From an uncultured Nitrosopumilales archaeon (GTDB lineage Archaea; Thermoproteota; Nitrososphaeria; Nitrososphaerales; CAZIZY01), in assembly GCA_964544235.1 (NCBI GenBank), contig CAZIZY010000007.1, forward strand, positions 3,043-67,042: 64,000 nt of DNA, read 5' to 3'. The position numbers and the translations under genes are program-made. Positions 2,121 to 52,925 of the stretch are shown one piece after another. Positions within the stretch are counted from its first letter, which is position 1, and each line of letters starts with the position of its first letter. Below the pieces are notes generated by a model. That model was not told the DNA's origin and ran no database searches. It was given only the letters and a program-made list of their open reading frames with translations.

Positions 2121-3203
2121 ATGAGTAAAGTAAGAATAGGAATAATAGGAGTAGGTAATTGTGCAAGTGGCCTATTACAAGGAATACAGTTCTATAAGGA
2201 TAATCCTAAAGATACTGTCGGTCAACTCAATGAATATATTGGTGATTATGGACTAAATGACATTGAATTTGTTTCTGCATTTGATGTAGGTAGCAATAAA
2301 ATAGGTAAATCTTTATCCAAAGCAATTTTTGAGGCTCCTAACACTGTAAATTGGGTTAAAAGCGTATCTAATGCGGATGCCATTGTTAAAGAATCTCCTA
2401 TATTTGATGGAGTTGGACATTTTGTCAAAGATAAAATTAGCCCGTTGAATCAATCCAAATCACTTGAACAAATTAAACAAGAATTAATTCAAGAAATAAA
2501 AGATACAGAAACTGACGTATTATTGAGTTATCTTCCTGTTGGTAGTCAAAAAGCAACTGAATTCTGGGCAGAAGTGGCACTAGAAACAGGTTGTGGTTTT
2601 GTTAATTGTGTTCCTGTGTTTATAGCATCTAATCCAGTTTGGGCTAAAAAGTTTTCTGATGCTAATGTTCCAATTGTTGGTGATGATATTAAAGCTCAAC
2701 TTGGAGCAACTATAGTTCACCGAACTTTAGCAAAACTTTGTTCAGATCGAGGATGTGTAATTGATAAAACTTATCAAATTAATGTCGGCGGAAACACTGA
2801 TTTCCTTAATATGAGGGAAATTGAAAGACTCGAATCTAAAAAAATATCAAAAACTGAATCTGTTCAATCTGTTTTACCTGAAAGAATTCCTGATGAATCA
2901 ATCTATGTAGGTCCTAGTGATTATATCCCTCATCTTGGTAATACTAAATTATGTTTTATAAGAATTGAAGGAAGAATGTTTTCTCAAGTTCCATTTAATT
3001 TAGAACTTAGATTAGATGTTGATGATAAAGCTAATTCTGCAGGTATCGCAGTTGATGCTGCTCGAATATGTAAAATTGCGCTAGATCGAAAAATAGGTGG
3101 CCCTGTAATTGAGGCTAGTGCTTGGTTAATGAAGCATCCTCCAAAACAAATGCCTGATACTGAAGCGTTATCTGGATTGGATTCATGGATATCTAGCAAA
3201 TAG
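2121..3203 (+). CDS. myo-inositol-1-phosphate synthase (archaeal short type)
   Basis: 360 aa. N-terminal Rossmann motif VRIGIIGVGNCASGLLQGIQFYK, plus SYLPVGS and GDDIKAQLGATIVHRTL, as in archaeal/bacterial MIPS. Confidence 0.85.
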   Translation: MSKVRIGIIGVGNCASGLLQGIQFYKDNPKDTVGQLNEYIGDYGLNDIEFVSAFDVGSNKIGKSLSKAIFEAPNTVNWVKSVSNADAIVKESPIFDGVGHFVKDKISPLNQSKSLEQIKQELIQEIKDTETDVLLSYLPVGSQKATEFWAEVALETGCGFVNCVPVFIASNPVWAKKFSDANVPIVGDDIKAQLGATIVHRTLAKLCSDRGCVIDKTYQINVGGNTDFLNMREIERLESKKISKTESVQSVLPERIPDESIYVGPSDYIPHLGNTKLCFIRIEGRMFSQVPFNLELRLDVDDKANSAGIAVDAARICKIALDRKIGGPVIEASAWLMKHPPKQMPDTEALSGLDSWISSK

Positions 3204-12386: not shown

Positions 12387-13823
12387 TCATTCCCATTTTG
12401 TGTGAAATATTCCAGATTTGTCTACTCTTTTGTAACCATGAGCTCCAAATAAATCCCTTAAAGCTTGTATAATATTTGCAGGTAATCTTTCTCTTCTATA
12501 TGAATCATAATAATCTAAAGCTGATGATAAAGCAGGACAAGCTATTCTTAATTTCTTAATCCTATAAATTCCATTTCTCCAATTATCTTCTAGTTCGATT
12601 AAGCTTGAGCTAAATGAATCATTTATAATTAAATTATTATATTCTTGTTTATCTTCATAATATTGTTGTATTTTATCTAATACTTTTGCTCTTATTATGC
12701 ATCCTCCTTTCCATATTCTAGCAACCTCGCTTAAATCTATATTATATTCATATTCTTCCGAAGCTTTTCTTATTAATTCAAATCCTTGTGTGAAAGAAAT
12801 TATTGTAGTACAATAAAGAGAGTCTCTAAGTAACTTAACTATTTCATCATTGTTATCATTATCTTCTTTCTTTATTCTCTTTTTTGCTTCTAAACTCGAG
12901 GATATTATTAATCTTTCATCTTTTAATGAAGATATATTTCTTGAACTGATTGATGTATCTATAGTTGGAATTGGAACTCCTAATTCTAATGCGCTTTGAG
13001 ATGTCCACCTTCCAGTTCCTTTTTGTTCAGCCTTATCTATTATCATATTCAATAATGGCTCATTTGTTTCATCATCAATTTTGTTACATACTGTAGCTGC
13101 GATTTCTACTAAATATGAACTTAATTCATTATTATTCCATTCATTGAAGACATTACCTATCTTATCTGTATCCATCTTTATTCCATTTGCTAAAACATCA
13201 TAAACTTCTGATATAGCTTGAAGTAATGCATATTCAATTCCATTATGAACCATTTTGATAAAATGTCCTGATCCTCCTTTTCCAAAATACGAGCAGGAAA
13301 TTCCGTGCTCTCCATTAATTGAAACCTTGTTTAAAATTGGAGAAACTATTTCGTATCCTTCCTTAGACCCACCTGCCATTATGCATGGTCCTTTTAATGC
13401 CCCTTCTTCTCCGCCACTTATTCCTAATCCTAAATAATTTATTTCGCCATTCTTATTATTCTTATTGTAATTTGAAATTTCTTTAATTCTTTTCTCAGTA
13501 TCTTTATAAAATGAATTTCCTCCATCCATTAATAAATCTCCTTTAGATAATTTTGTTTGAAGTTGTGAAATTGTCTGATCCGTCGCATTTCCAGATGTAA
13601 CCATGATTAAAATCTTACGTGGAACTTTTAGTGATTCTATAAATTCATCTATCGAATATGTTGGATAAATTGAAGATTCTCCTTCAATACTCTTTATGAA
13701 TTCGTTTGTTCTTGTTGATGTTCTATTGTATACTGCAATATTGAATCCTTTATTTGAAATATTTATAGCTAAACTTTTACCCATCACTCCTAGTCCAATT
13801 AATCCTATATCGCATTTATTCAT
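12387..13823 (-). CDS. gnd: 6-phosphogluconate dehydrogenase, decarboxylating
   Basis: 478 aa. IGLIGLGVMGKSLAINISNKGFNIAVYNRT, GGSGHFIKMVHNGIEYA and the C-terminal RDLFGAHGYKR. Confidence 0.9.
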   Translation of the reverse strand: MNKCDIGLIGLGVMGKSLAINISNKGFNIAVYNRTSTRTNEFIKSIEGESSIYPTYSIDEFIESLKVPRKILIMVTSGNATDQTISQLQTKLSKGDLLMDGGNSFYKDTEKRIKEISNYNKNNKNGEINYLGLGISGGEEGALKGPCIMAGGSKEGYEIVSPILNKVSINGEHGISCSYFGKGGSGHFIKMVHNGIEYALLQAISEVYDVLANGIKMDTDKIGNVFNEWNNNELSSYLVEIAATVCNKIDDETNEPLLNMIIDKAEQKGTGRWTSQSALELGVPIPTIDTSISSRNISSLKDERLIISSSLEAKKRIKKEDNDNNDEIVKLLRDSLYCTTIISFTQGFELIRKASEEYEYNIDLSEVARIWKGGCIIRAKVLDKIQQYYEDKQEYNNLIINDSFSSSLIELEDNWRNGIYRIKKLRIACPALSSALDYYDSYRRERLPANIIQALRDLFGAHGYKRVDKSGIFHTKWE

Positions 13824-13829
13824 ATTTTA

Positions 13830-14486
13830 TTAAATCTCCGCAAAAACAGTACAAGGAGAACTATCTACTCCATTTATAAATATTGGAATGGCGAAAATTC
13901 TTTTAATGTTAGCTACATAATTTGATAAATTCATATCCTCGATTATGAAAAAATCTCTTTTTTTTAATAAAATACCATGAGCTTTTCTCCCTTCATCTCG
14001 ATTACTTGCAGATGATACTGAAATTATATCTAATCCTATAGCCTTTAATTTAGGAAATTTATCTACAATATATTTTGCTCCCTCTGATGATAATCCTGGA
14101 TTAACTTTTGAGTATCTTTCTGGTTCTAATTCTCTATATCTCTGAAATTTAGTTCGTATTAATAATATCTCTACTTTGTTAATATCTTTTTCAAATTTTT
14201 CTAGGTCTCTTGCTTCAATTAATTCTGAATCTTTTTTTGGTATATCTACTAGTAATTCACTAGTGAAAATAAAATCATCTAGTTTATATTTCGATACTGT
14301 TTTCCCATTTTCATCAAAATGATTTGGGCAATCTATATGTGTTCCTAAATGATTTGAAAAATGTAGGTTATAGCTATTACTGCTACCTCCCATCTTTATC
14401 TCTTTTATTGGGGATATCGTTAATGAAGGGCCTCCAGCAAATCCTGGTGTCTCTTTTGTTAAAACATGTGAAAGATTAACTAACAT
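13830..14486 (-). CDS. Cyclase-family metal-dependent hydrolase (kynurenine formamidase-like fold)
   Basis: 218 aa carrying the family signature HLGTHIDCPNH (HxGTHxDxPxH). Confidence 0.75.
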   Translation of the reverse strand: MLVNLSHVLTKETPGFAGGPSLTISPIKEIKMGGSSNSYNLHFSNHLGTHIDCPNHFDENGKTVSKYKLDDFIFTSELLVDIPKKDSELIEARDLEKFEKDINKVEILLIRTKFQRYRELEPERYSKVNPGLSSEGAKYIVDKFPKLKAIGLDIISVSSASNRDEGRKAHGILLKKRDFFIIEDMNLSNYVANIKRIFAIPIFINGVDSSPCTVFAEI

Positions 14487-14608
14487 TCACTTTCTTTGTT
14501 TTATTATTCCATATTTGAATTTTTATGATATTTTTATCGAGTAAACACTTTTTTTAATCGAACTGTTTAAAACCTAATTATTTTATCTCTCATTATACGT
14601 GTATCTAT

Positions 14609-15643
14609 ATGTCTAATCTACAAGTTGGATACTGGGTAGGTCAAGAGCAATATGATCCGAATACCCTTCTAGACTTTGCTCGTCATGCTGAAATTGTAGG
14701 TTTTGATATAATTTGTTCTAGTGATCACTTTCATCCTTGGAGAGATTCTAATGCGCACTCAGGTTTTCCTTGGGTATGGTTATCTGTTTTAGCTTCTCAA
14801 ACTACTAATACTGAAGTTGGAACTGCAGTAACTACTCCACTCTTACGTTATCACCCTGCAATTGTAGCTCAAGCTTTTGCTACATTAGACTATATGTTTC
14901 CTGGAAGAGTCTTTATTACTATTGGAACAGGCCATAAAATGAATGAAACTCCATTAGGATTTGAATGGCCAGGATTTAAAGAAAAAATCAAAAGACTTGA
15001 AGAAGCAATTACAATTATAAAACAACTATGGTCTGGTGAATTCGTTAATTTTAAAGGTGAATTTTATACACTTAACGACGCGAAATTATATACGATCCCT
15101 AAAAAGAAAATTCCTATCCATGTTGCTACTGCAAATACTAGGGTTGCAAAACTTGCTGGAGAATTTTGTGATGGCGTTTTAACTAATCCTCGAGGGTTAG
15201 AAAATCATGTCAAAATCTTAGATGCAGCTAGAAACGCCGCTTCTGATTCTGGGAAAGATCCTTCTACTATTAGTACTTGTATGGAATTCAAAGTTTCTTA
15301 TGATGTTGATTATGATAAGGCATTATCTTCCGCTGTATATTGGGCTCCAACTGCTATTCCTAGAGAAGTTCGAGAACATATATCTGATCCAAGAGATTTT
15401 GAATCTAATGTAGGTGAAAAAGAAGTCGAAAAGATCGAGAAATCTTGGTTGATTACAACAAACTCAGAAGCAATTATAAAGAAACTTGAAAGTTTAATGA
15501 AATCAGGCTATAATAGAGTTTACATTCATAGTGCTAGTCCGCATGAAAAGAAATTCTTAGATTTACTTGGTAGAGATATTCTTCCTTGGATGAGAGAATA
15601 TTATGATACTCTTGTTAATCCTATTACTTTAGTTTCAGATTAA
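14609..15643 (+). CDS. Luciferase-like (LLM) F420-dependent oxidoreductase, closest in pattern to F420-dependent glucose-6-phosphate dehydrogenase (FGD)
   Basis: 344 aa. SSDHFHPWR, RYHPAIVAQAFATLDYMFPGRVFITIGTG and LWSGEFVNFKGEFY run collinear with my recollection of actinobacterial FGD1 (SDHFQPWR, RYNPAVIAQAFATM..GVGTGE). Confidence 0.7.
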   Translation: MSNLQVGYWVGQEQYDPNTLLDFARHAEIVGFDIICSSDHFHPWRDSNAHSGFPWVWLSVLASQTTNTEVGTAVTTPLLRYHPAIVAQAFATLDYMFPGRVFITIGTGHKMNETPLGFEWPGFKEKIKRLEEAITIIKQLWSGEFVNFKGEFYTLNDAKLYTIPKKKIPIHVATANTRVAKLAGEFCDGVLTNPRGLENHVKILDAARNAASDSGKDPSTISTCMEFKVSYDVDYDKALSSAVYWAPTAIPREVREHISDPRDFESNVGEKEVEKIEKSWLITTNSEAIIKKLESLMKSGYNRVYIHSASPHEKKFLDLLGRDILPWMREYYDTLVNPITLVSD

Positions 15644-15661: not shown

Positions 15662-16237
15662 TTATTGATTATTAATTACGCCTAATAGTTTCTCGTATTC
15701 CTTTCTTGTTATATTTTTGTCTTGAAAACTATTTTTAATATTACGCATTACTGAACTTCTTAATTCAAGAAGTTGAGTCCTCTTTTGATCTAATTTAGTT
15801 ATTTGTTCATCAATATCTAAAACTAATTCCATTTGATTGTTAACTGAATTATTATTCTTATCGTTAATTTCTTTTATTTGTGATTCAAATTCTTTATCGT
15901 TTTTTTCTTTTAATTTATCTTCGTAAGAAATAAACCTTGTAATGTAAAATTCAGGAGAAAAATCTATTGTAAGAGAAACGTTCTTACTTACTGAATACAT
16001 TCTTCTATCTGGTCCAATTGGACTTGATTCTTTTTGAGCTTTTACTACTGAAGCTTCTTCTAATACTTTAAGATGTTTTGAAATTAATTGTTGTTGTAAC
16101 CCGAGACTTGTTGATAACTCTAAAGGATATCCTTGAGTTTGACTTAATCTTTGAATGATTCTTCTTCGAACAGGATTACCTAATACATTTAGACAATCAT
16201 CTAATCCATATCTTTGATATGACATTAGACTTATCAT
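15662..16237 (-). CDS. ArsR-type winged-HTH transcriptional regulator with a C-terminal coiled coil
   Basis: LGNPVRRRIIQRLSQTQGYPLELSTSLGLQQQLISKHLKVLEEASVV, followed by about 80 aa of charged heptad-like sequence. Confidence 0.65.
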   Translation of the reverse strand: MISLMSYQRYGLDDCLNVLGNPVRRRIIQRLSQTQGYPLELSTSLGLQQQLISKHLKVLEEASVVKAQKESSPIGPDRRMYSVSKNVSLTIDFSPEFYITRFISYEDKLKEKNDKEFESQIKEINDKNNNSVNNQMELVLDIDEQITKLDQKRTQLLELRSSVMRNIKNSFQDKNITRKEYEKLLGVINNQ

Positions 16238-16303
16238 TTACTTCATAACGCTTAAATAGTTTACTACCGGAAGTTGTATACTATTAGGAGATTATGCTTA
16301 AAA

Positions 16304-17986
16304 ATGTCTCAATTTAACCCTGGTTCACAACCTATAATTCTTTTAAAAGAAGGTAGTAGTCAATCTTCTGGAAAAGATGCCCAAAAAAATAATATAATGG
16401 CTGCAAAATTAATTGCTGAAATCGTTAAATCATCTTTAGGACCTCGAGGAATGGATAAAATGCTTGTTGATTCCATGGGTGATGTTACTATTACTAATGA
16501 TGGTGCAACTATGCTTAAAGAAATAGATGTACAACATCCTGCTGCTAAAATGCTTGTCGAAGTTTCTAAAACTACTGATAGTGAAGTTGGTGATGGAACA
16601 ACTTCTGCAGTAATTCTTTCTGGTATGTTACTTGAAAAAGCTGAAGAACTAATTGATAAAGACGTTCATCCTACTGTAATTGTTAATGGATACAAAAGAG
16701 CATCTGTACAAGCTTTAGAGGCTCTTAAGAAAATATCTGAAAAGATTCCTGATGGAGATCGAAAATGGTTAATTAAAGTAGCTCATACAAGTATGCAAAG
16801 TAAACTTATTGCTAGAGCTGCTTCTGATCTTGCTCCTATAGTAGTTGATTCTGTTTTGGCAGTAGCTGAGAAATCAAATAAACAATATACTGTTGATATT
16901 GATAATATTAAGATTGAAAAAAAGCCTGGCGGATCTATAACTGATACTAAAATGGTTTCGGGTATTGTTTTAGATAAAGAAGTTACTCATTCTGGAATGC
17001 CTACTAAAGTCAGTAATGCTAAATTAGCTTTAGTGAGTGCTCCTATTGAAATCGAAAAACCTGAGTTTGACGCTAAATTAAATATAAATGATCCTACTAT
17101 GATGAAGAAATTCCTTGATGAGGAAAATGACCTTCTTAAAAACATGGTTGATTCAATTAAATCTGTTGGCGCTAATGTTTTAATCTGTCAAAAGGGAATT
17201 GATGATGTTGCTCAACATTATCTTGCTAAATATGGAATTCTAGCAGTACGTCGTGCAAAAGAAAGTGATATGACTAAACTTGCTAAAGCTACTGGAGGAA
17301 GAATAATTAACAATCTTGATGATCTTTCTAAAAAAGATCTAGGTCAAGCTAAAATCGTAGAAGAGCGTAAAGTGGAAGAAGATAAATGGGTATTTATCGA
17401 AGGATGCAAAGATCCTAAAGCTGTTACTATCTTAGTTAGAGGAGGACAACAACGGGTAGTTGATGAAGTTGAACGATCAATGAATGATTCTTTAATGGTC
17501 ACTAAAGATGTTCTTGAAAAACCTTCAATAGTTGCTGGTGGTGGTGCATCTGAAACTGAAGCTGCTCAACATGTATTCAAATGGGCTGAAAAACTTAGTG
17601 GAAGAGAACAACTAGCTGCGCAAAAATTTGCTGAAGCTTTAGAATCTATAGCTGTTACTTTAGCTTCTAACGCCGGTTTAGATCCTATTGATGCACAAGT
17701 TGAATTACGATCTAAACATTCTGGTGGAGCTAAAGGTAAATGGTTTGGCGTAGACATCCATGAAAGTAAGATACGTGATATGTATCAAAATGACGTATTT
17801 GAACCAGTTGTAGTTAAAGAACAGATTATTAAAGCTGCTACAGAGGCTACATCTATGATTCTACGTGTCGATGATGTTATAGCTACTGGAAAATCTAGTG
17901 CTCCTCCTATGCCACCTGGCGGTATGGGCGGTATGGGCGGTATGGGCGGCATGGGCGGCATGGGCGGAATGCCTATGGGAATGTAA
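16304..17986 (+). CDS. ths: Thermosome subunit (group II chaperonin)
   Basis: [31 protein letters not shown] and VAGGGASE. I prefer the ATG at 16304 ([17 protein letters not shown]) over the TTG at 16274. Confidence 0.95.
17918..17971 (+). repeat. Six 9-bp tandem units (ggc ggy atg) encoding the (GGM)n chaperonin C-terminal tail
   Basis: The sequence ggcggtatg is repeated and the protein ends [23 protein letters not shown]. Confidence 0.9.
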
Positions 17987-46935: not shown

Positions 46936-47028
46936 TGGGCCCGCCCGGATTTGAACCGGGGACCTTTCGATTATCAGTCGAACGCTCCTTGGCCTCCTAT
47001 GGAGTTAACCATGCTGAGCTACGAGCCC
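46936..47028 (-). tRNA. tRNA-Ile(GAU) with an 18-nt intron at the D-loop/D-stem junction (46988-47005)
   Basis: The minus strand reads GGGCUCG-UA-GCUC-AGCAUGGUUA|intron|GAGC-G-UUCGA-CUGAUAA-UCGAA-AGGUC-CCCGG-UUCAAAU-CCGGG-CGGGCCC-A. BHB central helix UGGU/GCCA, inner helix CUCC/GGAG. Confidence 0.9.
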
Positions 47029-47140: not shown

Positions 47141-47244
47141 GCCGAGGTAGCTCAGCCTGGGAGAGCACCCGTCATCCTTTTATTCTAAAAGGATGGGTGA
47201 AGCTGAAGACCGGGCTGTCGCCGGTTCAAGTCCGGCCCTCGGCA
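47141..47244 (+). tRNA. tRNA-Phe(GAA) with a 30-nt intron inside the anticodon stem (30/31; 47172-47201)
   Basis: GCCGAGG-UA-GCUC-AGCCUGGGA-GAGC-A-CCCG|intron|G-CUGAAGA-CCGGG-CUGUC-GCCGG-UUCAAGU-CCGGC-CCUCGGC-A. BHB central helix CACC/GGUG, 9-bp inner helix CAUCCUUUU/AAAAGGAUG. Confidence 0.9.
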
Positions 47245-47361: not shown

Positions 47362-49458
47362 GTGAAATTATTGTCCACTTCAGATAAACGAGTTAGGGCA
47401 ATATATTCTGTTATTGGTTCTTCTAATCGCTTAGAAGTTCTTAGAATCTTACATACTCAGGGTCCTTTGAGCTATTCTGAGTTAAAAACGCTTGCTGGAT
47501 TTAGATCAAAAAAAGAATCTGGTAAATTCGCTTATCATTTAAGAAAGCTTCTTAAACAAATGCTAATTACGCTTAATCGTTCAGAACGCAAATATTCTGT
47601 ATCTGGACTTGGAAGATTAATACTTAATCTTACTCGTCAAATAGAAGAACAGTCATTAATGGAAAGCGGTAAACTTTTTGTAAGAACTTCTAAGCAATCA
47701 ATGGAGGAATTTAATGTTGATAAAATTACACAGTCTCTGATTAGGGAAGGAGGGATGACTCTTGAATCAGCACAAAGAATTACTGAAGAATCTGAGGGCC
47801 GGTTACATAAATTTCAAGCTTCATATCTTACTGCTCCTCTTATTCGAGAAATTGTTAATGCTGTGCTTCTTGAACATGGGTATGAAGAGTATAGACATCG
47901 TTTAACTCGATTAGGAGTTCCTGTATATGATATCAATCTTCTAATGGAAAATGTTGGAAGGAGTTTGTATTCGACTGAAACGGTATTTAAAAAAACCGCT
48001 CAAAATGTGTTCACAGAGTATCTTCTATTAACTCAAATGCCAAAAGATGTATCTGATTCACATGTATCTGGAGACTTACATGTTTCAAATATAGGTGTTT
48101 GGGGCATTATGCCTGATACTTTATTCTTAGACTTAAGCTCTATTGATATTAATGATATAGGTTGGGGTGGAAAAATGCCATGGATTCCTAGATTAATAAA
48201 AAATAATAGCTTAGATGATTCTTTATTTGAATTAATGTCTCTGATTTACTCTTTAAGTCGAGAAATATCAACAGAGATTAGTTTTCAAGGTTTTTTACAA
48301 TTCATTAAAAATAACTCAAAGAAACTTTCTAATGAACAAATTAGTCTTTCTATATCCAGAGCGTTACAACTTTCAAATTTACTTCTTCCGCAATCGTCTA
48401 AACCCTTCATATTGACGTTTCATATTAATTACGAGAATTCCGATGATGACCTTATTAATGATATTCTTAGTGGATACCTTAATTATATTGAATCTGTTCC
48501 TATGTCTTTCATTAAATTGATTTTACATAAAGAAACTCTAAATAAAAAGACGGCTCAATTAGTTCTTGATATAATTAAATTAGGTGGCTCAATAGCTTTT
48601 GATACTTCTGATGAATCTCATTCTTATTTAGGAGTTAAAAATACAGCTTCAACTTCAAATAATTTCGGTGTAGCTGTATTGCATTCTCTTTCTCTTAACC
48701 TTCCTAGATTAGCTACCGAATCTAATAGAGACTCTACTTATTTTAGGGCTAAACTCGCTCTCTTAATTCAATCTGCTGTTCCAGCTTTATCATATCGAAG
48801 AAAATTCATCTTAGATACTATGAACAAAGGTCTTCTTCCCACAATCTCGAAAAATCCAGCAGCTATATCGACTGAAAAAATTCCTTTAATAATTCAACTA
48901 AGTGGTCTTGAAGAAGCCGCTTCTATTTTAGTTGGAGAACGTGCTTCCTCTAAGTTATCTAGCTTTGAAAAAATCATCGCTTCTGCAATAAAATCTACTT
49001 CAGAAAGTGCTAATGATTTAAATGAAGATGGATATGTATCTATCCTTCCTACTGAGGGGAATTTCCGATTAGCTTCACTTGATTCTAATAAGTATGGCAA
49101 ATCAGTTACTAAAGATATTAAGAAGTATTCTGACATTTCGTTAATTAATTATGAAGATGGTCTTTCTGAAAAAGATCTAGATCGGCATAATAGACCATTT
49201 AAGATGCTTAATGGTGGATACTCTTTGTCTATTTTGCTACCTCATAATATTGATCTTAAGAATTTCAATAACCTGGTTAATATTCTTAAAAATGAGCCTG
49301 GTTTCTTTAGATTAGGAATGTTATTTGGATATTGTTTAGATTGTGGATCTAAGACTCCTTCTCCTTTTACTCGATGTAATTCATGTCGATCTACTTCAAT
49401 CAGAAAAATAAATACAGGTGATGCTTCTGTTAGAGATGATCTCGAAGTTGCTAGTTAA
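47362..49458 (+). CDS. Fusion protein: winged HTH, ATP-cone and a degenerate class III ribonucleotide reductase (NrdD)-like body with a C-terminal zinc ribbon. Putative RNR regulator.
   Basis: wHTH RLEVLRILHTQGPLSYSELKTLAG. ATP-cone KLFVRTSKQSMEEFNVDKITQSLIREGG...IREIVNAVLLEHGYEEYRHRL. NrdD-like SGDLHVSN and SLSLNLPRLA. CLDC-x13-CNSC. There are no other cysteines and no glycyl-radical motif. GTG start. Confidence 0.7.
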   Translation: MKLLSTSDKRVRAIYSVIGSSNRLEVLRILHTQGPLSYSELKTLAGFRSKKESGKFAYHLRKLLKQMLITLNRSERKYSVSGLGRLILNLTRQIEEQSLMESGKLFVRTSKQSMEEFNVDKITQSLIREGGMTLESAQRITEESEGRLHKFQASYLTAPLIREIVNAVLLEHGYEEYRHRLTRLGVPVYDINLLMENVGRSLYSTETVFKKTAQNVFTEYLLLTQMPKDVSDSHVSGDLHVSNIGVWGIMPDTLFLDLSSIDINDIGWGGKMPWIPRLIKNNSLDDSLFELMSLIYSLSREISTEISFQGFLQFIKNNSKKLSNEQISLSISRALQLSNLLLPQSSKPFILTFHINYENSDDDLINDILSGYLNYIESVPMSFIKLILHKETLNKKTAQLVLDIIKLGGSIAFDTSDESHSYLGVKNTASTSNNFGVAVLHSLSLNLPRLATESNRDSTYFRAKLALLIQSAVPALSYRRKFILDTMNKGLLPTISKNPAAISTEKIPLIIQLSGLEEAASILVGERASSKLSSFEKIIASAIKSTSESANDLNEDGYVSILPTEGNFRLASLDSNKYGKSVTKDIKKYSDISLINYEDGLSEKDLDRHNRPFKMLNGGYSLSILLPHNIDLKNFNNLVNILKNEPGFFRLGMLFGYCLDCGSKTPSPFTRCNSCRSTSIRKINTGDASVRDDLEVAS

Positions 49459-49586: not shown

Positions 49587-52500
49587 ATGGTGAATAACGT
49601 TTTGGATAAATCTGGAAATATTGAATTAACTGATAATTTTGATGAACTCTTATTAAATCGGGTTCAGCTTGAAGGGGTTAAAGGATTAAAGATTCCTAGA
49701 TTATTCACTAAAACTGGTGAAAATGTATTTGATAATTTTGATTGGCAAAATAACTCAAGTATTCTCAGGGATTCAACTGGCCTAACAGTATTTGAGATGG
49801 ATGATGTTGAAGTTCCCAAGTTTTGGAGTCAAGTTGCTATTGATGTTCTTGCACAAAAGTATTTTAGAAAACAAGGTGTTCCTCAATACGATAAAAATGG
49901 AGTACAATTGTTTAATGATAATGGGGCTCCTATTCTCGGATCTGAAAAGTCACTTAAACAAGTTGTTCATAGGTTAGCTGGTTGTTGGACTTTTTGGGGT
50001 AAAAAATATGGTTATTTTGCATCTGAGGAAGACTCTCAATCATTTTACGATGAATTAAGCTATATGCTTATCTCTCAGATGGCTGCACCTAATTCTCCTC
50101 AGTGGTTTAACACAGGATTAAATTATGTTTATGGAATTACTGGACCTAGTCAAGGGCATTATTATTATGATCCTGATTCAAAACAGGTAGTTAAATCACA
50201 AGATGAATATTCCCATCCTCAATCCCATGCTTGTTTTATTCAACCGATCCGTGATGATTTAGTGAATGAAGGAGGAATAATGGATTTATGGGTAAGAGAA
50301 GCTAGAATATTTAAATTAGGATCAGGTACTGGAACTAATTTCTCTTCTTTAAGGGGTAAAGGAGAATCTCTTTCTGGTGGAGGAAAATCATCAGGAGTAA
50401 TGTCATTCTTACGAATTGGAGACACAGTTGGAGGAAGTATCAAATCTGGTGGAACTACTAGAAGAGCCGCTAAAATGGTAGTCTTAAACGTAGATCATCC
50501 TGAAATTGAAGATTTTATTAGTTGGAAAATGAACGAAGAACTCAAAGTTGCAGCTTTAGTTAATTCTGGGTATTCTTCCGACTTTGAAGGTGAAGCTTAT
50601 CAAACTGTTTCTGGACAAAACTCTAATAATTCTGTACGAATGACTGACGGATTTATGAGGGCTGTATTAGATGATCGTGATTGGGATCTAACTGCAAGAA
50701 CTGATGGACATGTTATGAAGTCAGTTAAAGCTAGGGATTTATGGGATAAAATATCAAATGCAGCGTGGTATTGTGCTGATCCTGGATTGCAATTTGATAC
50801 TACTTGTAATGATTGGAATACATGTCCTGAAACAGATCGAATTAATGCTACTAATCCTTGTTCTGAGTATAATTTCATAGATAATACTGCATGTAATTTG
50901 GCTTCACTTAATCTCAGTAAATTCTTTGATTCTGATAAATTATGTTTTGATATTCCTGCTTTCAAACATGCTATTCGATTATGGACTATTGTGTTAGAAA
51001 TCTCTGTATTAATGGCTCAATATCCTAGTCAAGAAATAGCTATCAATAGTTATAAAACTAGAACTCTAGGACTCGGTTTCACAAATCTTGGTTCAATTCT
51101 AATGGTTTCCGGACTTCCTTATGATTCTGATGAAGCTCGATCTGTTTGTTCTAGTGTTACCGCTATAATGACAGGTGAATCATATGCTACTTCTGCTGAA
51201 CTTGCTTGTTTATTTGGTCCTTTTGCTGAATCTAATAAAAATAGAGAACATATGTTGAAAGTTATTCGTAACCATAGAAGAGTAGTTTATGGGGTTAATA
51301 CCGATGAATTTGAAGATATTTCTGTTCCTCCTACTGTTCTAGATAATAAGATTTGTCCTCCTGATTTGCTAAAGGCTTCTAAAGACTCTTGGGATAGGGC
51401 TTTAACTCTAGGTGAACGATTTGGTTATAGAAATGCGCAGACTACATTAATTGCTCCAACTGGAACTATTAGTCTAGTAATGGATTGTGATACTACTGGA
51501 ATAGAACCTGATTTTGCTTTGGTGAAATTCAAAAAACTAGTCGGTGGTGGGTATTTTAAACTTGTTAATCAATCTATCAGCGTTTCTCTTAAGAACCTAG
51601 GTTATTCCAAAGATCACGTTAATGAAATAATTAGATATATTGCTGGAAGTAATTCTTTAAAGAAATCTCCTTACATTAATGAATCTGCATTAAAGAAAAA
51701 AGGCTTCATAAAAGATGATATACGTAAAGTTGAGAAGGCATTATCTTCTGTATTTGAAATTAAACATGCTTTTGTGAATTCTATTATAGGGCCTGATTGT
51801 TTGGAAAGATTAGGCATTAAAGAAGGACAATCTAGTAATCCTACTTTTAATTTACTCAAAGTACTTGGTTTTAGCGATATTGAAATTGAAGCTGCAAACG
51901 ATTATGTTTGTGGTTCAGGAACTATTGAAGGAGCGCCCCATCTAAAAGAGGAACATTATCCTATATTCGATTGTTCAACTAAATGCGGTAAAAATGGAAC
52001 ACGATTTATCAATTATATGGCGCATGTTGATATGATGGCTGCTTCACAACCATTACTTTCAGGTTCTATAAGTAAAACAATTAATATGCCTAATCATGCT
52101 ACTGTTGAAGAAGTTAAAACTGTATATATGGATAGTTGGAAAAAAGGCCTTAAAACTATTGCATTATATCGTGATGGCTGTAAATTATCTCAACCATTAT
52201 CCACTAAAGCATTTAATGAAGAAACTGAGAATTTAGTTCAAAAACCATCTAGAAGGAGGTTACCTGATGAAAGAAAGTCTATTACTCATAAATTTAGAAT
52301 AGGTACTCACGAGGGATATTTACATCTTGGATTATACGAAGACAATTCTCCCGGAGAATTATTCATTACTATGTCAAAACAAGGTAGTACTCTTGCTGGT
52401 TTAATGGATTCTTTTGCTACTTCTGTTTCAATTTCTCTTCAATATGGAGTTCCACTTAAAGTATTAGTAGATAAATTTGTTCATACTCGTTTTGAACCAT

Positions 52501-52925
52501 CTGGTTGGACAAATAATCCTCAAATCCGTGTAGCAAAATCTTTGATGGATTACATATTTAGATGGATTGCATTAAAATTCCTTCCTCAAGACGATTTAAC
52601 CCATTTAGGCTACAATGAAATTGTTGAATCAAATGGCGAGGTTCCTTCAAATGGTGATTCTGAATCAAATGGTGATATTACTTCAAATGGTAATCTTACT
52701 TCAAATGGTGATGTTGAGTCAAACGGTGATGTTGAAATAAATAGTAATGATATCTCTTTTGGACCTCTAACTTCTGATTCAGGTGTACTTAATGACTCTT
52801 CTACCAAAACAAAGTTTGATGTAATTTCTGATGCTCCTACTTGTACAGATTGTGGTTCATTAATGAGGCGAAGTGGATCTTGTTATTTGTGTTCTAGCTG
52901 TGGAAGCACTACAGGATGCTCTTAA
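49587..52925 (+). CDS. nrdJ: Adenosylcobalamin-dependent ribonucleotide reductase (class II, NrdJ)
   Basis: 1112 aa. NPCSEYNFIDNTACNLASLNL (thiyl Cys loop), GGTRRAAKMV, TTLIAPTGTIS, and a C-terminal redox/Zn tail CTDCGS..CYLCSSCGSTTGCS. Confidence 0.9.
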   Translation: MVNNVLDKSGNIELTDNFDELLLNRVQLEGVKGLKIPRLFTKTGENVFDNFDWQNNSSILRDSTGLTVFEMDDVEVPKFWSQVAIDVLAQKYFRKQGVPQYDKNGVQLFNDNGAPILGSEKSLKQVVHRLAGCWTFWGKKYGYFASEEDSQSFYDELSYMLISQMAAPNSPQWFNTGLNYVYGITGPSQGHYYYDPDSKQVVKSQDEYSHPQSHACFIQPIRDDLVNEGGIMDLWVREARIFKLGSGTGTNFSSLRGKGESLSGGGKSSGVMSFLRIGDTVGGSIKSGGTTRRAAKMVVLNVDHPEIEDFISWKMNEELKVAALVNSGYSSDFEGEAYQTVSGQNSNNSVRMTDGFMRAVLDDRDWDLTARTDGHVMKSVKARDLWDKISNAAWYCADPGLQFDTTCNDWNTCPETDRINATNPCSEYNFIDNTACNLASLNLSKFFDSDKLCFDIPAFKHAIRLWTIVLEISVLMAQYPSQEIAINSYKTRTLGLGFTNLGSILMVSGLPYDSDEARSVCSSVTAIMTGESYATSAELACLFGPFAESNKNREHMLKVIRNHRRVVYGVNTDEFEDISVPPTVLDNKICPPDLLKASKDSWDRALTLGERFGYRNAQTTLIAPTGTISLVMDCDTTGIEPDFALVKFKKLVGGGYFKLVNQSISVSLKNLGYSKDHVNEIIRYIAGSNSLKKSPYINESALKKKGFIKDDIRKVEKALSSVFEIKHAFVNSIIGPDCLERLGIKEGQSSNPTFNLLKVLGFSDIEIEAANDYVCGSGTIEGAPHLKEEHYPIFDCSTKCGKNGTRFINYMAHVDMMAASQPLLSGSISKTINMPNHATVEEVKTVYMDSWKKGLKTIALYRDGCKLSQPLSTKAFNEETENLVQKPSRRRLPDERKSITHKFRIGTHEGYLHLGLYEDNSPGELFITMSKQGSTLAGLMDSFATSVSISLQYGVPLKVLVDKFVHTRFEPSGWTNNPQIRVAKSLMDYIFRWIALKFLPQDDLTHLGYNEIVESNGEVPSNGDSESNGDITSNGNLTSNGDVESNGDVEINSNDISFGPLTSDSGVLNDSSTKTKFDVISDAPTCTDCGSLMRRSGSCYLCSSCGSTTGCS
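52629..52754 (+). repeat. About seven in-frame 18-bp tandem repeats (tca aat ggt gat nnn nnn), encoding (SNGDxx)n in the NrdJ C-terminal linker
   Basis: The protein reads ESNGEVPSNGDSESNGDITSNGNLTSNGDVESNGDVEINSND. The DNA units are nearly identical. Confidence 0.85.

What the first reader, a model, noticed from the sequence alone, without database searches (positions are those of the whole stretch)
12387..15643. gnd / cyclase-family hydrolase / FGD-like F420 oxidoreductase cluster: possible F420-linked oxidative pentose phosphate branch in an archaeon
Seen in sequence. There are three relevant genes.
- A full-length decarboxylating 6-phosphogluconate dehydrogenase (12387-13823).
- Six nt downstream on the same strand, a cyclase-family metal hydrolase (HLGTHIDCPNH).
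- Across a 122-nt divergent spacer, an LLM-family protein whose sequence runs collinear with my recollection of actinobacterial F420-dependent glucose-6-phosphate dehydrogenase (SSDHFHPWR, RYHPAIVAQAFATL, IGTG, LWSGEFVNFKGEFY).
Established knowledge. FGD makes 6-phosphogluconolactone and reduced F420, a lactonase opens the ring, and Gnd then acts. Most archaea use the RuMP route and lack the oxidative branch.
Inference. The three genes could form G6P to lactone to 6-PG to Ru5P, with the cyclase-fold hydrolase standing in for the missing Pgl/DevB-type lactonase.
Caveat. As far as I can align from memory, the acidic residue after GTG in FGD (GTGE) is His here (GTGH), and part of the phosphate-binding pocket is not obviously conserved. 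The sugar substrate is therefore uncertain.
Basis: partly seen in the sequence, partly recalled or inferred. Interest (0 to 1): 0.6.

Follow-up and report, generated by a model that had tools for sequence, protein, structure and literature searches.

The report
Archaeal F420-type oxidative pentose phosphate gene cluster
A marine archaeon carries a gene trio, conserved across related archaea, that probably turns glucose-6-phosphate into ribulose-5-phosphate using an F420-type dehydrogenase, an unusual metal hydrolase that may be the "missing" lactonase, and ordinary 6-phosphogluconate dehydrogenase; the pathway idea is already published, but the lactonase candidate and the enzyme's altered active site appear not to be.

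Summary
The three genes are real and at the stated coordinates: gnd (12387-13823, -), a PF04199 cyclase-fold metal hydrolase (13830-14486, -, transcribed ahead of gnd) and, across a 122-nt divergent spacer, an FGD-like LLM protein (14609-15643, +).

The link between them is not chance. Among 28 non-redundant loci holding an LLM of the same clade (55-72% identical):
- 17 have the hydrolase divergently upstream.
- 9 also have gnd, and every one of those has the hydrolase.
- 21 have a PHI-like SIS sugar-phosphate isomerase immediately downstream. This gene is absent from the window.

The LLM belongs to a 100%-supported clade that is sister to, but outside, the characterised F420-dependent G6P dehydrogenases.
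- It keeps the sugar C1-OH residues (E13, H40, W44) and two of the three phosphate ligands, as Arg.
- It has His for Glu109 and lacks Arg283.
- It fails the FGD equivalog cut-off but passes the F420_G6P family cut-off.

Best reading (about 0.5): an F420-linked oxidative pentose phosphate module, with the cyclase-fold enzyme as 6-phosphogluconolactonase. An F420-dependent oxidative branch lacking a lactonase was already inferred for Aigarchaeota (Beam 2016). The new elements are the lactonase candidate, the distinct active-site signature, and its presence in a low-GC marine lineage. No biochemistry exists.

The parts
12387..13823 (-). gnd: decarboxylating NADP-dependent 6-phosphogluconate dehydrogenase, 478 aa. 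It is the second gene of a two-gene unit with the hydrolase.
   Evidence: NF006765 603 bits (cut-off 413), TIGR00873 583 (426.7), PF03446 + PF00393. The closest non-self homologues are 50-53% identical. They include Nitrososphaerota and Terraquivivens proteins on the same contigs as LLM and hydrolase homologues.
13830..14486 (-). Cyclase-fold (PF04199) metal-dependent hydrolase, 218 aa. It is the candidate 6-phosphogluconolactonase. It is transcribed first, 6 nt ahead of gnd.
   Evidence: PF04199 95 bits. The arylformamidase equivalog TIGR03035 scores 68 against a cut-off of 223, so it is not met. Metal ligands H46, H50, D52, H56, H170 and E183 are invariant. R118, R163 and R167 are conserved, and the corresponding positions in KynB are gaps or Leu. 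The AF2 model has pLDDT 96. Best PDB matches are the cyclase-phosphotriesterase 8f9x, KynB and isatin hydrolase. The gene lies divergently upstream of the LLM in 17 of 28 clade loci.
14487..14608 (.). 122-nt AT-rich divergent intergenic spacer between the hydrolase-gnd unit and the LLM gene. It presumably holds both promoters.
   Evidence: Read directly. TTTAAAA lies about 36-42 nt before the LLM ATG, and A/T-rich TATA-like runs lie before the hydrolase start. In 30% GC DNA this is weak evidence. The only inverted repeat is 9 nt and imperfect. The divergent layout itself is conserved, with spacers of 68-1088 bp in most relatives.
14609..15643 (+). FGD-like luciferase-like (LLM) oxidoreductase, 344 aa. 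It is the candidate deazaflavin-dependent hexose-6-phosphate (probably G6P) dehydrogenase.
   Evidence: TIGR03557 F420_G6P_family 239 bits (cut-off 210, met). TIGR03554 FGD 266 bits (cut-off 420, not met). Best PDB sequence hits are Rh-FGD1 at 252 bits, Mtb FGD1 at 251 and Adf at 228. The AF2 model has pLDDT 90.5, and its best structural match is FGD1 at TM 0.89-0.92. Its clade has 100/100 bootstrap support and is sister to the FGD clade at 57/100. Active-site map.

Best explanation
The three genes encode an oxidative pentose phosphate module built partly from non-canonical parts.

1. The LLM protein oxidises the anomeric carbon of a hexose-6-phosphate, most likely glucose-6-phosphate. The product is 6-phosphoglucono-delta-lactone, and the hydride goes to a deazaflavin (F420).
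2. The cyclase-fold binuclear or mononuclear metal hydrolase opens the lactone to 6-phosphogluconate. It stands in for Pgl/DevB.
3. Gnd oxidatively decarboxylates 6-phosphogluconate to ribulose-5-phosphate, yielding NADPH.

The hydrolase and gnd form one transcription unit. The LLM is read divergently from the same spacer. In many relatives a PHI-like SIS sugar-phosphate isomerase sits next to the LLM and could supply G6P from F6P. The four genes would then form a self-contained F6P-to-Ru5P route, replacing the RuMP route.

Shown: gene identities at family level, the active-site map, the phylogenetic position, and the conserved synteny.

Inferred: the substrate of the LLM, its cofactor, the lactonase activity, and the operon structure.
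For: Gnd:
- It is an unambiguous 6PG dehydrogenase, so 6PG must be made somewhere.

LLM family and fold:
- It belongs to the F420_G6P family.
- Its predicted structure superposes on FGD1 at TM about 0.9.
- It is sister to the clade that contains Mtb FGD1 and Rh-FGD1.

LLM active site:
- It keeps E13, H40 and W44, the residues that contact the G6P C1-OH (PMC13434993).
- It keeps D39, V74 and N112, which are F420 contacts.
- It keeps cationic residues at two of the three phosphate-pocket positions (K198->R195, K259->R255).
- It has an extra clade-specific R252 in the same cap loop.
- In the sampled family, cationic residues at both the 198 and 259 positions occur only in the FGD clade and in this clade.

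Synteny, among 28 non-redundant clade loci:
- The hydrolase lies upstream and divergent in 17.
- gnd lies within 6.4 kb in 9, always together with the hydrolase.
- The phosphosugar isomerase lies downstream in 21.
- Only 2 loci have none of the three.
- The full cluster gnd<-hydrolase<- ->LLM<-SIS is in L094.
- The order hydrolase->gnd recurs in the window, L094, L028, L093 and L095.

Hydrolase:
- It has an intact metal site.
- PF04199 includes a trans-dienelactone hydrolase, a carboxylesterase, and a phosphotriesterase that readily hydrolyses lactones (PMC5341072, PMC12135135).

Literature:
- Aigarchaeota were annotated with an F420-G6PDH-based oxidative PPP 'complete except gluconolactonase', together with F420 biosynthesis (PMC4681859).
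Against: LLM as a G6P dehydrogenase:
- It misses the FGD equivalog cut-off by a wide margin (266 against 420 bits).
- It is outside the characterised clade. The sister relationship has only 57% NJ bootstrap support.
- Arg283 is Ser/Thr throughout the clade. The equivalent R282Q change nearly abolishes Rh-FGD1 activity (PMC5352752).

Cofactor:
- Glu109, invariant in all other sampled family members and an F420 contact, is His. F420 binding or chemistry may therefore differ.
- The FMN-type 'flavin_revert' model scores about as well (250 bits, also below its cut-off).
- No F420 biosynthesis gene lies in the 64-kb window, and the organism's genome could not be inspected.

Pathway context:
- The SIS partner is most similar to 6-phospho-3-hexuloisomerase, not to a known PGI. 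It is also missing from the window.
- No PF04199 enzyme is known to act on a phosphosugar lactone.
- 6-phosphogluconolactone also hydrolyses spontaneously.
- Eleven clade loci have the LLM without a nearby hydrolase.
Confidence: 0.5

Rival explanations
1. Same architecture, different sugar. The LLM oxidises another phosphorylated sugar: a broader sugar-6-phosphate range as in FSD enzymes, or the product of the PHI-like isomerase. The hydrolase opens the corresponding lactone. Gnd is linked only because the product eventually feeds 6PG or the pentose phosphate pool.
For: - The clade-specific active-site signature is W9, H109, N193-P194-R195, R252, R255, E256 and S/T279. It differs from all FGD-signature sequences.
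- The FGD equivalog cut-off is not met.
- The most conserved neighbour (21 of 28 loci) is a PHI-like SIS protein rather than gnd.
Against: - Whenever gnd is nearby, the hydrolase is too.
- The simplest source of Gnd's substrate is G6P oxidation.
- E13, H40 and W44 are arranged as in FGD1.
- No alternative substrate is suggested by any neighbouring gene.
Confidence: 0.2
2. Non-phosphorylated route. The LLM is an F420-dependent glucose or aldose dehydrogenase, as recently shown for Mtb FGD2. The hydrolase is a gluconolactonase. Gluconate is then phosphorylated elsewhere to 6PG for Gnd.
For: - Loss of Arg283 weakens the phosphate pocket.
- Mtb FGD2, which lacks the phosphate triad, oxidises glucose (PMC13434993).
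- PF04199 enzymes act on small neutral esters and lactones (PMC5341072).
Against: - Two invariant Arg at phosphate-pocket positions, plus R252, argue for an anionic substrate. FGD2 has Asp, Pro and Asn there (PMC13434993).
- The conserved partner is a phosphosugar isomerase.
- No gluconokinase or sugar kinase was identified among the window genes whose families were checked, or in the relatives' loci where gene calls were listed.
Confidence: 0.1
3. The cofactor is not F420. The clade has switched to FMN or another flavin, as proposed for the TIGR03885 'flavin_revert' relatives. It may act as a flavin-dependent oxidoreductase in the same or another pathway.
For: - The Glu109->His change is at an F420 ring contact (PMC13434993).
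- TIGR03885 scores 250 bits, similar to the F420 models.
- No F420 genes lie in the window.
Against: - TIGR03885 is far below its cut-off (398.7), whereas TIGR03557 is passed.
- D39, V74 and N112 are kept.
- The lineages that carry the clade (Aigarchaeota, Nitrososphaerota) are reported to encode F420 biosynthesis (PMC4681859, PMC8498797).
- Marine heterotrophic Thaumarchaeota MAGs list cofC and cofD.
Confidence: 0.1
4. No pathway link. The hydrolase is an arylformamidase or other amidohydrolase, and the LLM is an unrelated F420H2-dependent enzyme. Their adjacency to gnd is a historical accident.
For: - Automatic annotations call the hydrolase arylformamidase or kynurenine formamidase.
- Eleven clade loci lack the hydrolase nearby.
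- A 37%-identical homologue sits in an unrelated sugar-nucleotide cluster.
Against: - The arylformamidase equivalog cut-off is not met (68 against 223 bits).
- No tryptophan-catabolic genes are nearby.
- The divergent hydrolase/LLM pair keeps the same orientation in 17 loci spanning 55-72% LLM identity. gnd never occurs without the hydrolase.
Confidence: 0.07

Closest known systems
[quoted passage not shown]
   Same: - Same LLM TIM-barrel fold (TM about 0.9, rmsd 2.0 A).
- About 34-37% identity.
- Same F420_G6P family.
- Same E13, D39, H40, W44, V74 and N112.
- Cationic residues at positions 198 and 259.
   Different: - It forms a separate sister clade.
- It is below the equivalog cut-off.
- Differences are Glu109->His, Arg283->Ser/Thr, Lys->Arg at 198 and 259, Lys9->Trp, and NPR in place of TSGK.
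- Unlike the mycobacterial gene, as far as I recall, it is clustered with gnd, a hydrolase and often an isomerase.
Annotated F420-type oxidative PPP of Aigarchaeota ('Calditenuis aerorheumensis', Beam et al. 2016, PMC4681859) and reports of G6PDH + 6PGDH in Thaumarchaeota (PMC8506132, PMC8498797)
   Same: The proposal is the same: an FGD-like enzyme plus Gnd as an oxidative branch in F420-producing TACK archaea. The window's LLM clade includes Caldarchaeales/Aigarchaeota sequences.
   Different: - Those papers rest on automatic annotation and explicitly list the lactonase as missing.
- They report neither the conserved hydrolase and SIS neighbours nor the altered active site.
- Published reconstructions of marine heterotrophic Thaumarchaeota show only the non-oxidative branch (PMC7300363, 10.1101/2019.12.22.886556).
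Haloarchaeal oxidative PPP with the SDR-type G6PDH Azf plus Gnd (Pickl & Schonheit 2015, cited in PMC8506132)
   Same: It is an archaeal oxidative branch in which Zwf is replaced by a non-homologous dehydrogenase, while Gnd is canonical and no Pgl homologue is known.
   Different: Azf is an NAD-dependent short-chain dehydrogenase. Here the candidate is a deazaflavin-dependent LLM enzyme, and a dedicated hydrolase gene is attached.
PF04199 cyclase-fold metal hydrolases: kynurenine formamidase KynB, isatin hydrolase, trans-dienelactone hydrolase (P. reinekei MT1), esterase MGS0169, cyclase-phosphotriesterase C-PTE
   Same: - Same fold (TM 0.75-0.86).
- Complete HxGTHxDxPxH motif, plus the distal His and Glu ligands.
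- The family chemistry includes ring-opening of cyclic amides and hydrolysis of lactones and esters (PMC5341072, PMC12135135).
   Different: - Only 17-26% identity to solved members.
- It fails the arylformamidase equivalog.
- It carries conserved Arg118, Arg163 and Arg167, absent from KynB in the alignment.
- A phosphosugar lactone substrate has not been described for this family in the literature I could search.
Canonical 6-phosphogluconolactonases (Pgl/DevB, PF01182; YbhE beta-propeller)
   Same: The proposed reaction and the position in the pathway, immediately before Gnd.
   Different: No homology. The window protein matches only PF04199. It would be a non-orthologous replacement.

Membership tests
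[quoted passage not shown] | Scores above the curated equivalog cut-off | tested here: not met
   266.3 bits against a cut-off of 420
[quoted passage not shown] | Falls inside the clade of biochemically characterised FGDs | tested here: not met
   The NJ tree has 84 sequences. The window clade has 100/100 support, and the FGD-signature clade (with Mtb FGD1 and Rh-FGD1) has 100/100. The two are sisters at 57/100.
[quoted passage not shown] | Residues contacting the G6P C1 hydroxyl: Glu13, His40, Trp44 | tested here: met
   E13, H40 and W44 are present and invariant in the clade. Their roles are taken from PMC13434993.
[quoted passage not shown] | [quoted passage not shown] | tested here: not met
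   R195, R255 and S279 in the window, and R/R/(S or T) in all 24 clade sequences examined. All 42 FGD-signature sequences have K/K/R. Two positions stay cationic, so a phosphate site is still plausible. The defining triad is nevertheless not present.
[quoted passage not shown] | Glu109 contacting the F420 ring | tested here: not met
   His109, invariant in the clade. Glu is present in all 42 FGD-signature sequences and in 16 of 17 other relatives.
[quoted passage not shown] | G6P-dependent reduction of F420 | not testable with these tools
   Needs recombinant enzyme and F420.
TIGR03557 F420_G6P_family (LLM class, subfamily level) | Scores above the curated subfamily cut-off, and has the LLM TIM-barrel fold | tested here: met
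   239.4 bits against 210.4. PF00296 178 bits. AF2 pLDDT 90.5, with FGD1, Adf and FGD2 as top structural matches.
TIGR03885 FMN-dependent 'flavin_revert' LLM | Scores above the curated cut-off | tested here: not met
   250 bits against 398.7
Decarboxylating NADP-dependent 6-phosphogluconate dehydrogenase (Gnd) | Equivalog cut-offs, and a full-length two-domain architecture | tested here: met
   NF006765 603 bits against 413. TIGR00873 583 against 426.7. PF03446 covers residues 5-169 and PF00393 covers 186-477.
PF04199 cyclase-fold metal-dependent hydrolases | Pfam cut-off, HxGTHxDxPxH motif with distal His/Glu ligands, and the fold | tested here: met
   95.1 bits against 23.1. H46, H50, D52, H56, H170 and E183 are invariant. 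Foldseek matches to 8f9x, 4co9 and 4m8d have probability 1.0.
Arylformamidase / kynurenine formamidase (TIGR03035) | Equivalog cut-off, and a tryptophan-catabolic context | tested here: not met
   68.3 bits against 223. No kynurenine-pathway genes are in the window or in the relatives' loci.
Canonical 6-phosphogluconolactonase (Pgl/DevB or YbhE) | Homology to PF01182 or to the YbhE propeller | tested here: not met
   The only Pfam hit of the hydrolase is PF04199. Among the window genes whose families were checked, none matches a lactonase family.
Oxidative pentose phosphate branch (as a system) | F420 biosynthesis present, and zwf/pgl absent, in the same genome | not testable with these tools
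   Only 64 kb is available, and none of these genes is in it. Indirect evidence: related lineages are reported to make F420 (PMC4681859, PMC8498797), and the HMT MAG lists cofC and cofD.
Oxidative pentose phosphate branch (as a system) | The genes for the consecutive steps are functionally linked | tested here: met
   Conserved synteny in 17 (hydrolase), 9 (gnd) and 21 (SIS) of 28 non-redundant loci. All four genes are together in L094.

The most novel reading that the evidence does not exclude
A cyclase-fold (PF04199) metallohydrolase is the long-'missing' 6-phosphogluconolactonase of archaea. Together with a distinct His109-type FGD sister family, a PHI-like isomerase and Gnd, it forms a four-gene F6P-to-Ru5P module. 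This module gives Nitrososphaerota (Aigarchaeota, basal Thaumarchaeota and a marine low-GC lineage) a deazaflavin-linked oxidative pentose phosphate branch in place of the RuMP route.
Probability: 0.35. Interest if true: 0.6.

Novelty: new variant of a known kind. Interest (0 to 1): 0.5.

Why it matters
Most archaea are thought to lack the oxidative pentose phosphate branch. Genome papers on Aigarchaeota and Thaumarchaeota list it as incomplete because no lactonase is found.

If the conserved cyclase-fold hydrolase is that lactonase, four things follow:
- A gap in archaeal central metabolism is closed.
- PF04199 gains a new physiological activity.
- Thousands of 'arylformamidase' and 'F420-dependent G6PDH' annotations can be corrected or confirmed.
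- There would be a defined route by which these archaea, including an abundant dark-ocean heterotrophic lineage, make F420H2, NADPH and pentoses from hexose phosphate.

The altered active site (His109, no Arg283) is also a natural experiment on how FGD-type enzymes bind F420 and phosphate. That bears on F420-recycling biocatalysts.

Tried and rejected
- Kynurenine formamidase reading of the hydrolase. Rejected: it is far below the equivalog cut-off, and there is no tryptophan-catabolic context.
- LLM as Mer, Adf or hydroxymycolate dehydrogenase. Mer models score only about 110 bits. Adf and FGD2 lack the cationic pocket that this clade keeps (PMC13434993).
- F420 biosynthesis, zwf or pgl genes in the window. 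None was found among the window genes whose families were checked. This says nothing about the rest of the genome.
- The SIS partner in the window. tblastn found nothing.
- Bacterial-type promoter and terminator scan, and inverted-repeat scan of the spacer. Uninformative for an AT-rich archaeon.
- Assigning the organism.
  - The exact proteins occur only in marine metagenome contigs (Station ALOHA, Tara mesopelagic).
  - The GTDB species-representative scan found nothing closer than 65%.
  - The window is probably from a marine heterotrophic Nitrososphaerota lineage. I could not confirm that it is the published HMT/pSL12 group.
  - The gene order around the A-type ATPase differs from the order listed for the ATL MAG.
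- The HMT paper's supplements. They list cofC and cofD, but the stored files are truncated. They gave no hit for 6PGD or a PF04199 protein.
- A first tree attempt with Biopython's distance calculator timed out. It was replaced by a numpy Kimura-distance NJ tree with 100 bootstraps.
- The gnd homologue search did not resolve whether gnd is vertically inherited. Everything beyond the species is about 50% identical.

Full report
**1. Observation**

The ORF list shows the three genes at exactly the stated coordinates.
- gnd: 12387-13823, minus strand, 478 aa.
- A PF04199 protein: 13830-14486, minus strand, 218 aa.
- A luciferase-like (LLM) protein: 14609-15643, plus strand, 344 aa.

The gaps are 6 nt and 122 nt. 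Because gnd and the hydrolase are both on the minus strand, the hydrolase is transcribed first and gnd second. All quoted peptide motifs are present.

The family scans gave these results.
- Gnd passes both curated equivalog cut-offs: NF006765 603 bits against 413, and TIGR00873 583 against 426.7.
- The hydrolase is PF04199 (95 bits). It fails the arylformamidase equivalog (68 against 223).
- The LLM passes the subfamily model TIGR03557 'F420_G6P_family' (239 against 210).
- The LLM fails the FGD equivalog TIGR03554 (266 against 420), the FMN-type TIGR03885 (250 against 399) and the hydroxymycolate dehydrogenase model (216 against 470).

**2. Source**

- The window is about 31% GC. It encodes archaeal housekeeping genes: SRP RNA, DnaG, Pelota, thermosome, TFB, A-type ATPase, fibrillarin/Nop.
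- Identical proteins occur only on marine metagenome contigs from Station ALOHA and Tara mesopelagic samples.
- The nearest named relatives of the LLM and the hydrolase are Nitrososphaerota, Aigarchaeota/Caldarchaeales and Geothermarchaeales.
- A scan of one genome per GTDB species found nothing closer than 65%.
- The organism is therefore probably a marine heterotrophic member of Nitrososphaerota. I could not prove that it is the published HMT/pSL12-like group.

**3. What the LLM is**

By sequence, the best solved relatives are as follows.

| Solved relative | Bits |
|---|---|
| Rh-FGD1 (5LXE) | 252 |
| Mtb FGD1 (3B4Y) | 251 |
| F420-dependent alcohol dehydrogenase Adf | 228 |
| Thermomicrobium roseum Fgd (9HAV) | 216 |
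| Mtb FGD2 | 190 |
| Mer | about 85 |

An AlphaFold model built on 23 clade sequences is confident (pLDDT 90.5). Its best structural match is FGD1 (TM 0.89-0.92, rmsd 2.0 A, 34% identity).

I mapped the FGD1 residues onto the window protein. The mapped FGD1 positions carry the expected residue types, which checks the numbering. I extended the map to 84 family members.

| FGD1 residue | Role | Window protein |
|---|---|---|
| Glu13, His40, Trp44 | contact the G6P C1-OH (PMC13434993) | conserved |
| Asp39, Val74, Asn112 | F420 ring contacts | conserved |
| Glu109 | F420 ring contact | His109 |
| Lys198 | phosphate triad (PMC5352752) | Arg195 |
| Lys259 | phosphate triad | Arg255 |
| Arg283 | phosphate triad | Ser279 |
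| His260 | - | Glu256 |

- The signature H109 / N-P-R195 / R255 / E256 / S-or-T279 is invariant in every member of the window's clade.
- All 42 sequences with the canonical K198/K259/R283/E109 signature are bacterial: Actinomycetota, Chloroflexota, Dormibacterota and some Proteobacteria.
- Other archaeal relatives lack a cationic pocket altogether. These are the 'Bathyarchaeia' copies and the Nitrososphaeraceae copies, including Nitrosocosmicus.
- Further clade-specific residues include W9 (Lys in FGDs) and an extra Arg252 in the same cap loop as Arg255. I infer that Arg252 could compensate for the lost Arg283.

In an NJ tree with 100 bootstraps:
- The window clade is monophyletic at 100/100.
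- The FGD-signature clade, which contains both characterised enzymes, is monophyletic at 100/100.
- The two are sister groups at 57/100.

The protein is thus not a member of the characterised FGD family. It is that family's closest relative, and it retains the machinery for oxidising a sugar anomeric carbon, plus most of an anion-binding pocket.

**4. Gene neighbourhood, the strongest evidence**

I fetched 80 loci from GTDB genomes and several metagenome contigs. I located homologues of the window's Gnd and hydrolase, and of a neighbour seen in the relatives, by tblastn.

Among 28 non-redundant loci whose LLM is 55-72% identical to the window's:
- 17 have the PF04199 gene upstream on the opposite strand. 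The divergent arrangement is always the same, usually 68-720 bp away.
- 9 have gnd within 6.4 kb, and all nine also have the hydrolase.
- 21 have a 381-389-aa SIS-domain gene immediately downstream and convergent.
- Only 2 have none of the three.

Notable individual loci:
- L094 carries all four genes as gnd<-hydrolase<- ->LLM<-SIS.
- L093 has hydrolase->gnd as an adjacent pair, near a frameshifted LLM and SIS.
- L095/L096, the closest relative (72%, Tara), repeat the window's layout, including the HTH and thermosome genes.
- In Terraquivivens (L006/8/11) and L020, gnd follows the LLM on the same strand.

None of the FGD-signature bacterial loci has the hydrolase. One gammaproteobacterial MAG (L064) has a short gnd-like gene right after its FGD.

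The SIS protein's C-terminal domain is most like 6-phospho-3-hexuloisomerase. It scores 74-79 bits on TIGR03127 against a cut-off of 160, and its PDB matches are AF1796, MJ1247 and YckF. It has no HPS domain. KEGG-based annotation calls the Caldiarchaeum copy 'hps-phi'. It is a phosphosugar isomerase of unknown specificity. It is absent from the 64-kb window.

**5. The hydrolase**

- The metal ligands of the HxGTHxDxPxH motif, plus the distal His170 and Glu183, are invariant.
- The AlphaFold model is very confident (pLDDT 96.4).
- The model matches the cyclase-phosphotriesterase of Ruegeria, kynurenine formamidases and isatin hydrolases.
- Arg118, Arg163 and Arg167 are conserved in this subfamily. 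They align to gaps or Leu in KynB. I infer that they could bind an anionic group.
- Its orthologues, at 44-58% identity, are again Nitrososphaerota, Aigarchaeota and Caldiarchaeum proteins.
- A 37% homologue lies in an unrelated sugar-nucleotide cluster. The association with the LLM is therefore specific to the orthologous group.
- Precedent for the proposed chemistry exists. PF04199 contains a trans-dienelactone hydrolase and a metal-dependent carboxylesterase (PMC5341072). The Ruegeria enzyme is said to hydrolyse lactones readily (PMC12135135).
- I found no paper linking this family to 6-phosphogluconolactone.

**6. Most likely mechanism**

1. G6P is oxidised by the LLM to 6-phosphogluconolactone, with reduction of F420. 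In relatives, G6P is possibly supplied from F6P by the SIS isomerase.
2. The metal hydrolase opens the lactone.
3. Gnd yields Ru5P, CO2 and NADPH.

Shown: family membership, the residue map, the clade position and the synteny. Inferred: the substrate, the cofactor, the lactonase activity and co-transcription.

The main weaknesses:
- The loss of Arg283. The equivalent R282Q mutant of Rh-FGD1 is nearly dead (PMC5352752).
- The Glu109->His change at an F420 contact.
- The failure of the FGD equivalog.
- The PHI-like rather than PGI-like nature of the partner isomerase.
- The impossibility of checking cof, zwf and pgl genes in the genome.

Indirect support for F420:
- Aigarchaeota and Thaumarchaeota are reported to encode its biosynthesis (PMC4681859, PMC8498797).
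- The HMT MAG lists cofC and cofD.
- The pSL12-like MAGs encode an F420-dependent Mtd (10.1101/2019.12.22.886556).

I put the combined explanation at about 0.5. The rivals are another phosphosugar (0.2), unphosphorylated glucose as with Mtb FGD2 (0.1), a flavin rather than F420 (0.1, not exclusive of the others) and no functional link (0.07).

**7. Comparison with what is known, and novelty**

The idea of an F420-linked oxidative PPP in archaea is not new.
- Beam et al. [quoted passage not shown] They stated that F420 is used by its G6PDH.
- The F420 review lists Fgd in 'Thaumarchaeota?' (PMC8498797).
- G6PDH plus 6PGDH has been reported in Thaumarchaeota (PMC8506132).
- Haloarchaea provide a biochemically proven precedent for a non-orthologous G6PDH with canonical Gnd and no Pgl (Pickl & Schonheit 2015, cited in PMC8506132).

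What appears new:
- (a) A specific, syntenically supported candidate for the missing lactonase, from a fold not known to do this.
- (b) These archaeal 'FGDs' form a separate clade with a changed active-site signature. They fail the equivalog test, so the common annotation is unverified.
- (c) The conserved PHI-like partner, which suggests a four-gene F6P-to-Ru5P module.
- (d) The presence of the trio in a low-GC marine lineage. Published reconstructions of marine heterotrophic Thaumarchaeota show only the non-oxidative branch (PMC7300363).

I therefore class it as a new variant of a known kind, of moderate interest (0.5). It is directly testable with two recombinant proteins.

Noticed in passing
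L006:11043-12212 (-), L018:11031-12188 (-), L094:11036-12181 (-), and 18 further loci. Not in the window.: A 381-389-aa protein with a PHI-like C-terminal SIS domain (TIGR03127 74-79 bits, below its cut-off of 160; no HPS domain) lies convergently right after the clade-A LLM in 21 of 28 loci. It is the LLM's most conserved neighbour. KEGG-style annotation calls the Caldiarchaeum copy 'hps-phi', which is probably wrong.
   Followed up: partly
L067, L073, L077, L080, L081 (Nitrososphaeraceae, incl. Ca. Nitrosocosmicus agrestis) and L029-L037 ('Bathyarchaeia'): These archaeal LLMs are commonly annotated as F420-dependent G6P dehydrogenase (K15510). They lack cationic residues at the phosphate-pocket positions and fall outside both the FGD clade and the window clade. 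'FGD' calls in ammonia oxidisers and in soil Thaumarchaeota may be over-annotation.
   Followed up: partly
window 15662-16237 (-) and 16274-17986 (+): An ArsR/Phr-like HTH regulator (NF053602 'heat shock transcription regulator' 61 bits, below its cut-off) is divergently paired with the thermosome gene. The same pair follows the LLM in the 72%-identical Tara relative (L095/L096). It is probably a heat-shock regulator-chaperonin unit, unrelated to the trio.
   Followed up: partly
window 2121-3203 (+): A myo-inositol-1-phosphate synthase gene lies 9 kb from the trio. It is another consumer of glucose-6-phosphate.
   Followed up: no
window 47362-49458 (+) and 49587-52925 (+): Two different ribonucleotide reductase genes sit side by side. 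One is a 698-aa protein that Tara annotates as ribonucleoside-triphosphate reductase (K00527). The other is a 1112-aa class II B12-dependent enzyme with a TSCPD domain.
   Followed up: no
window 46936-47028 (-) and 47141-47244 (+): There are two Rfam tRNA hits, 93 and 104 nt long, which implies introns. ARAGORN reports only the second, as tRNA-Phe with the odd anticodon 'aaa', so its call is probably confused by the intron.
   Followed up: no
L012 (Ca. Acidoferrum MAG), L019 (Clostridia MAG, 1.2-kb contig), P0061/P0062 (Terriglobales/Acidoferrales): Clade-A LLMs, in L012 together with the archaeal-type SIS neighbour, are filed under bacterial MAGs. This is either binning contamination or horizontal transfer.
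   Followed up: no
L064:3794-5694: In a gammaproteobacterial MAG, a canonical-signature FGD is followed 20 nt later by a short (about 300-aa) gnd-like gene. FGD-gnd clustering therefore also occurs in bacteria.
   Followed up: no
L091/L092:8001-8696: A 37%-identical PF04199 homologue sits inside a sugar-nucleotide/nonulosonate-type cluster. Its neighbours include epimerase_2, cytidylyltransferases, an HpcH/HpaI aldolase, a 2-hydroxyacid dehydrogenase and a HAD phosphatase. This hints that the wider subfamily acts on sugar-acid derivatives.
   Followed up: no
L089:7033-7917, L093:5498-5962: In some Caldarchaeum and soil Nitrososphaerota loci, a class I SAM methyltransferase (Methyltransf_11/25) is inserted between the LLM and the hydrolase. 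Its role is unknown.
   Followed up: no
window, whole: The window's lineage was not found among GTDB species representatives by the peptide-pattern scan (best LLM match 65%). Its proteins are unusually divergent: the LLM is at most 72%, the hydrolase at most 58% and Gnd at most 53% identical to anything outside the species. This fits a fast-evolving, AT-rich lineage.
   Followed up: partly
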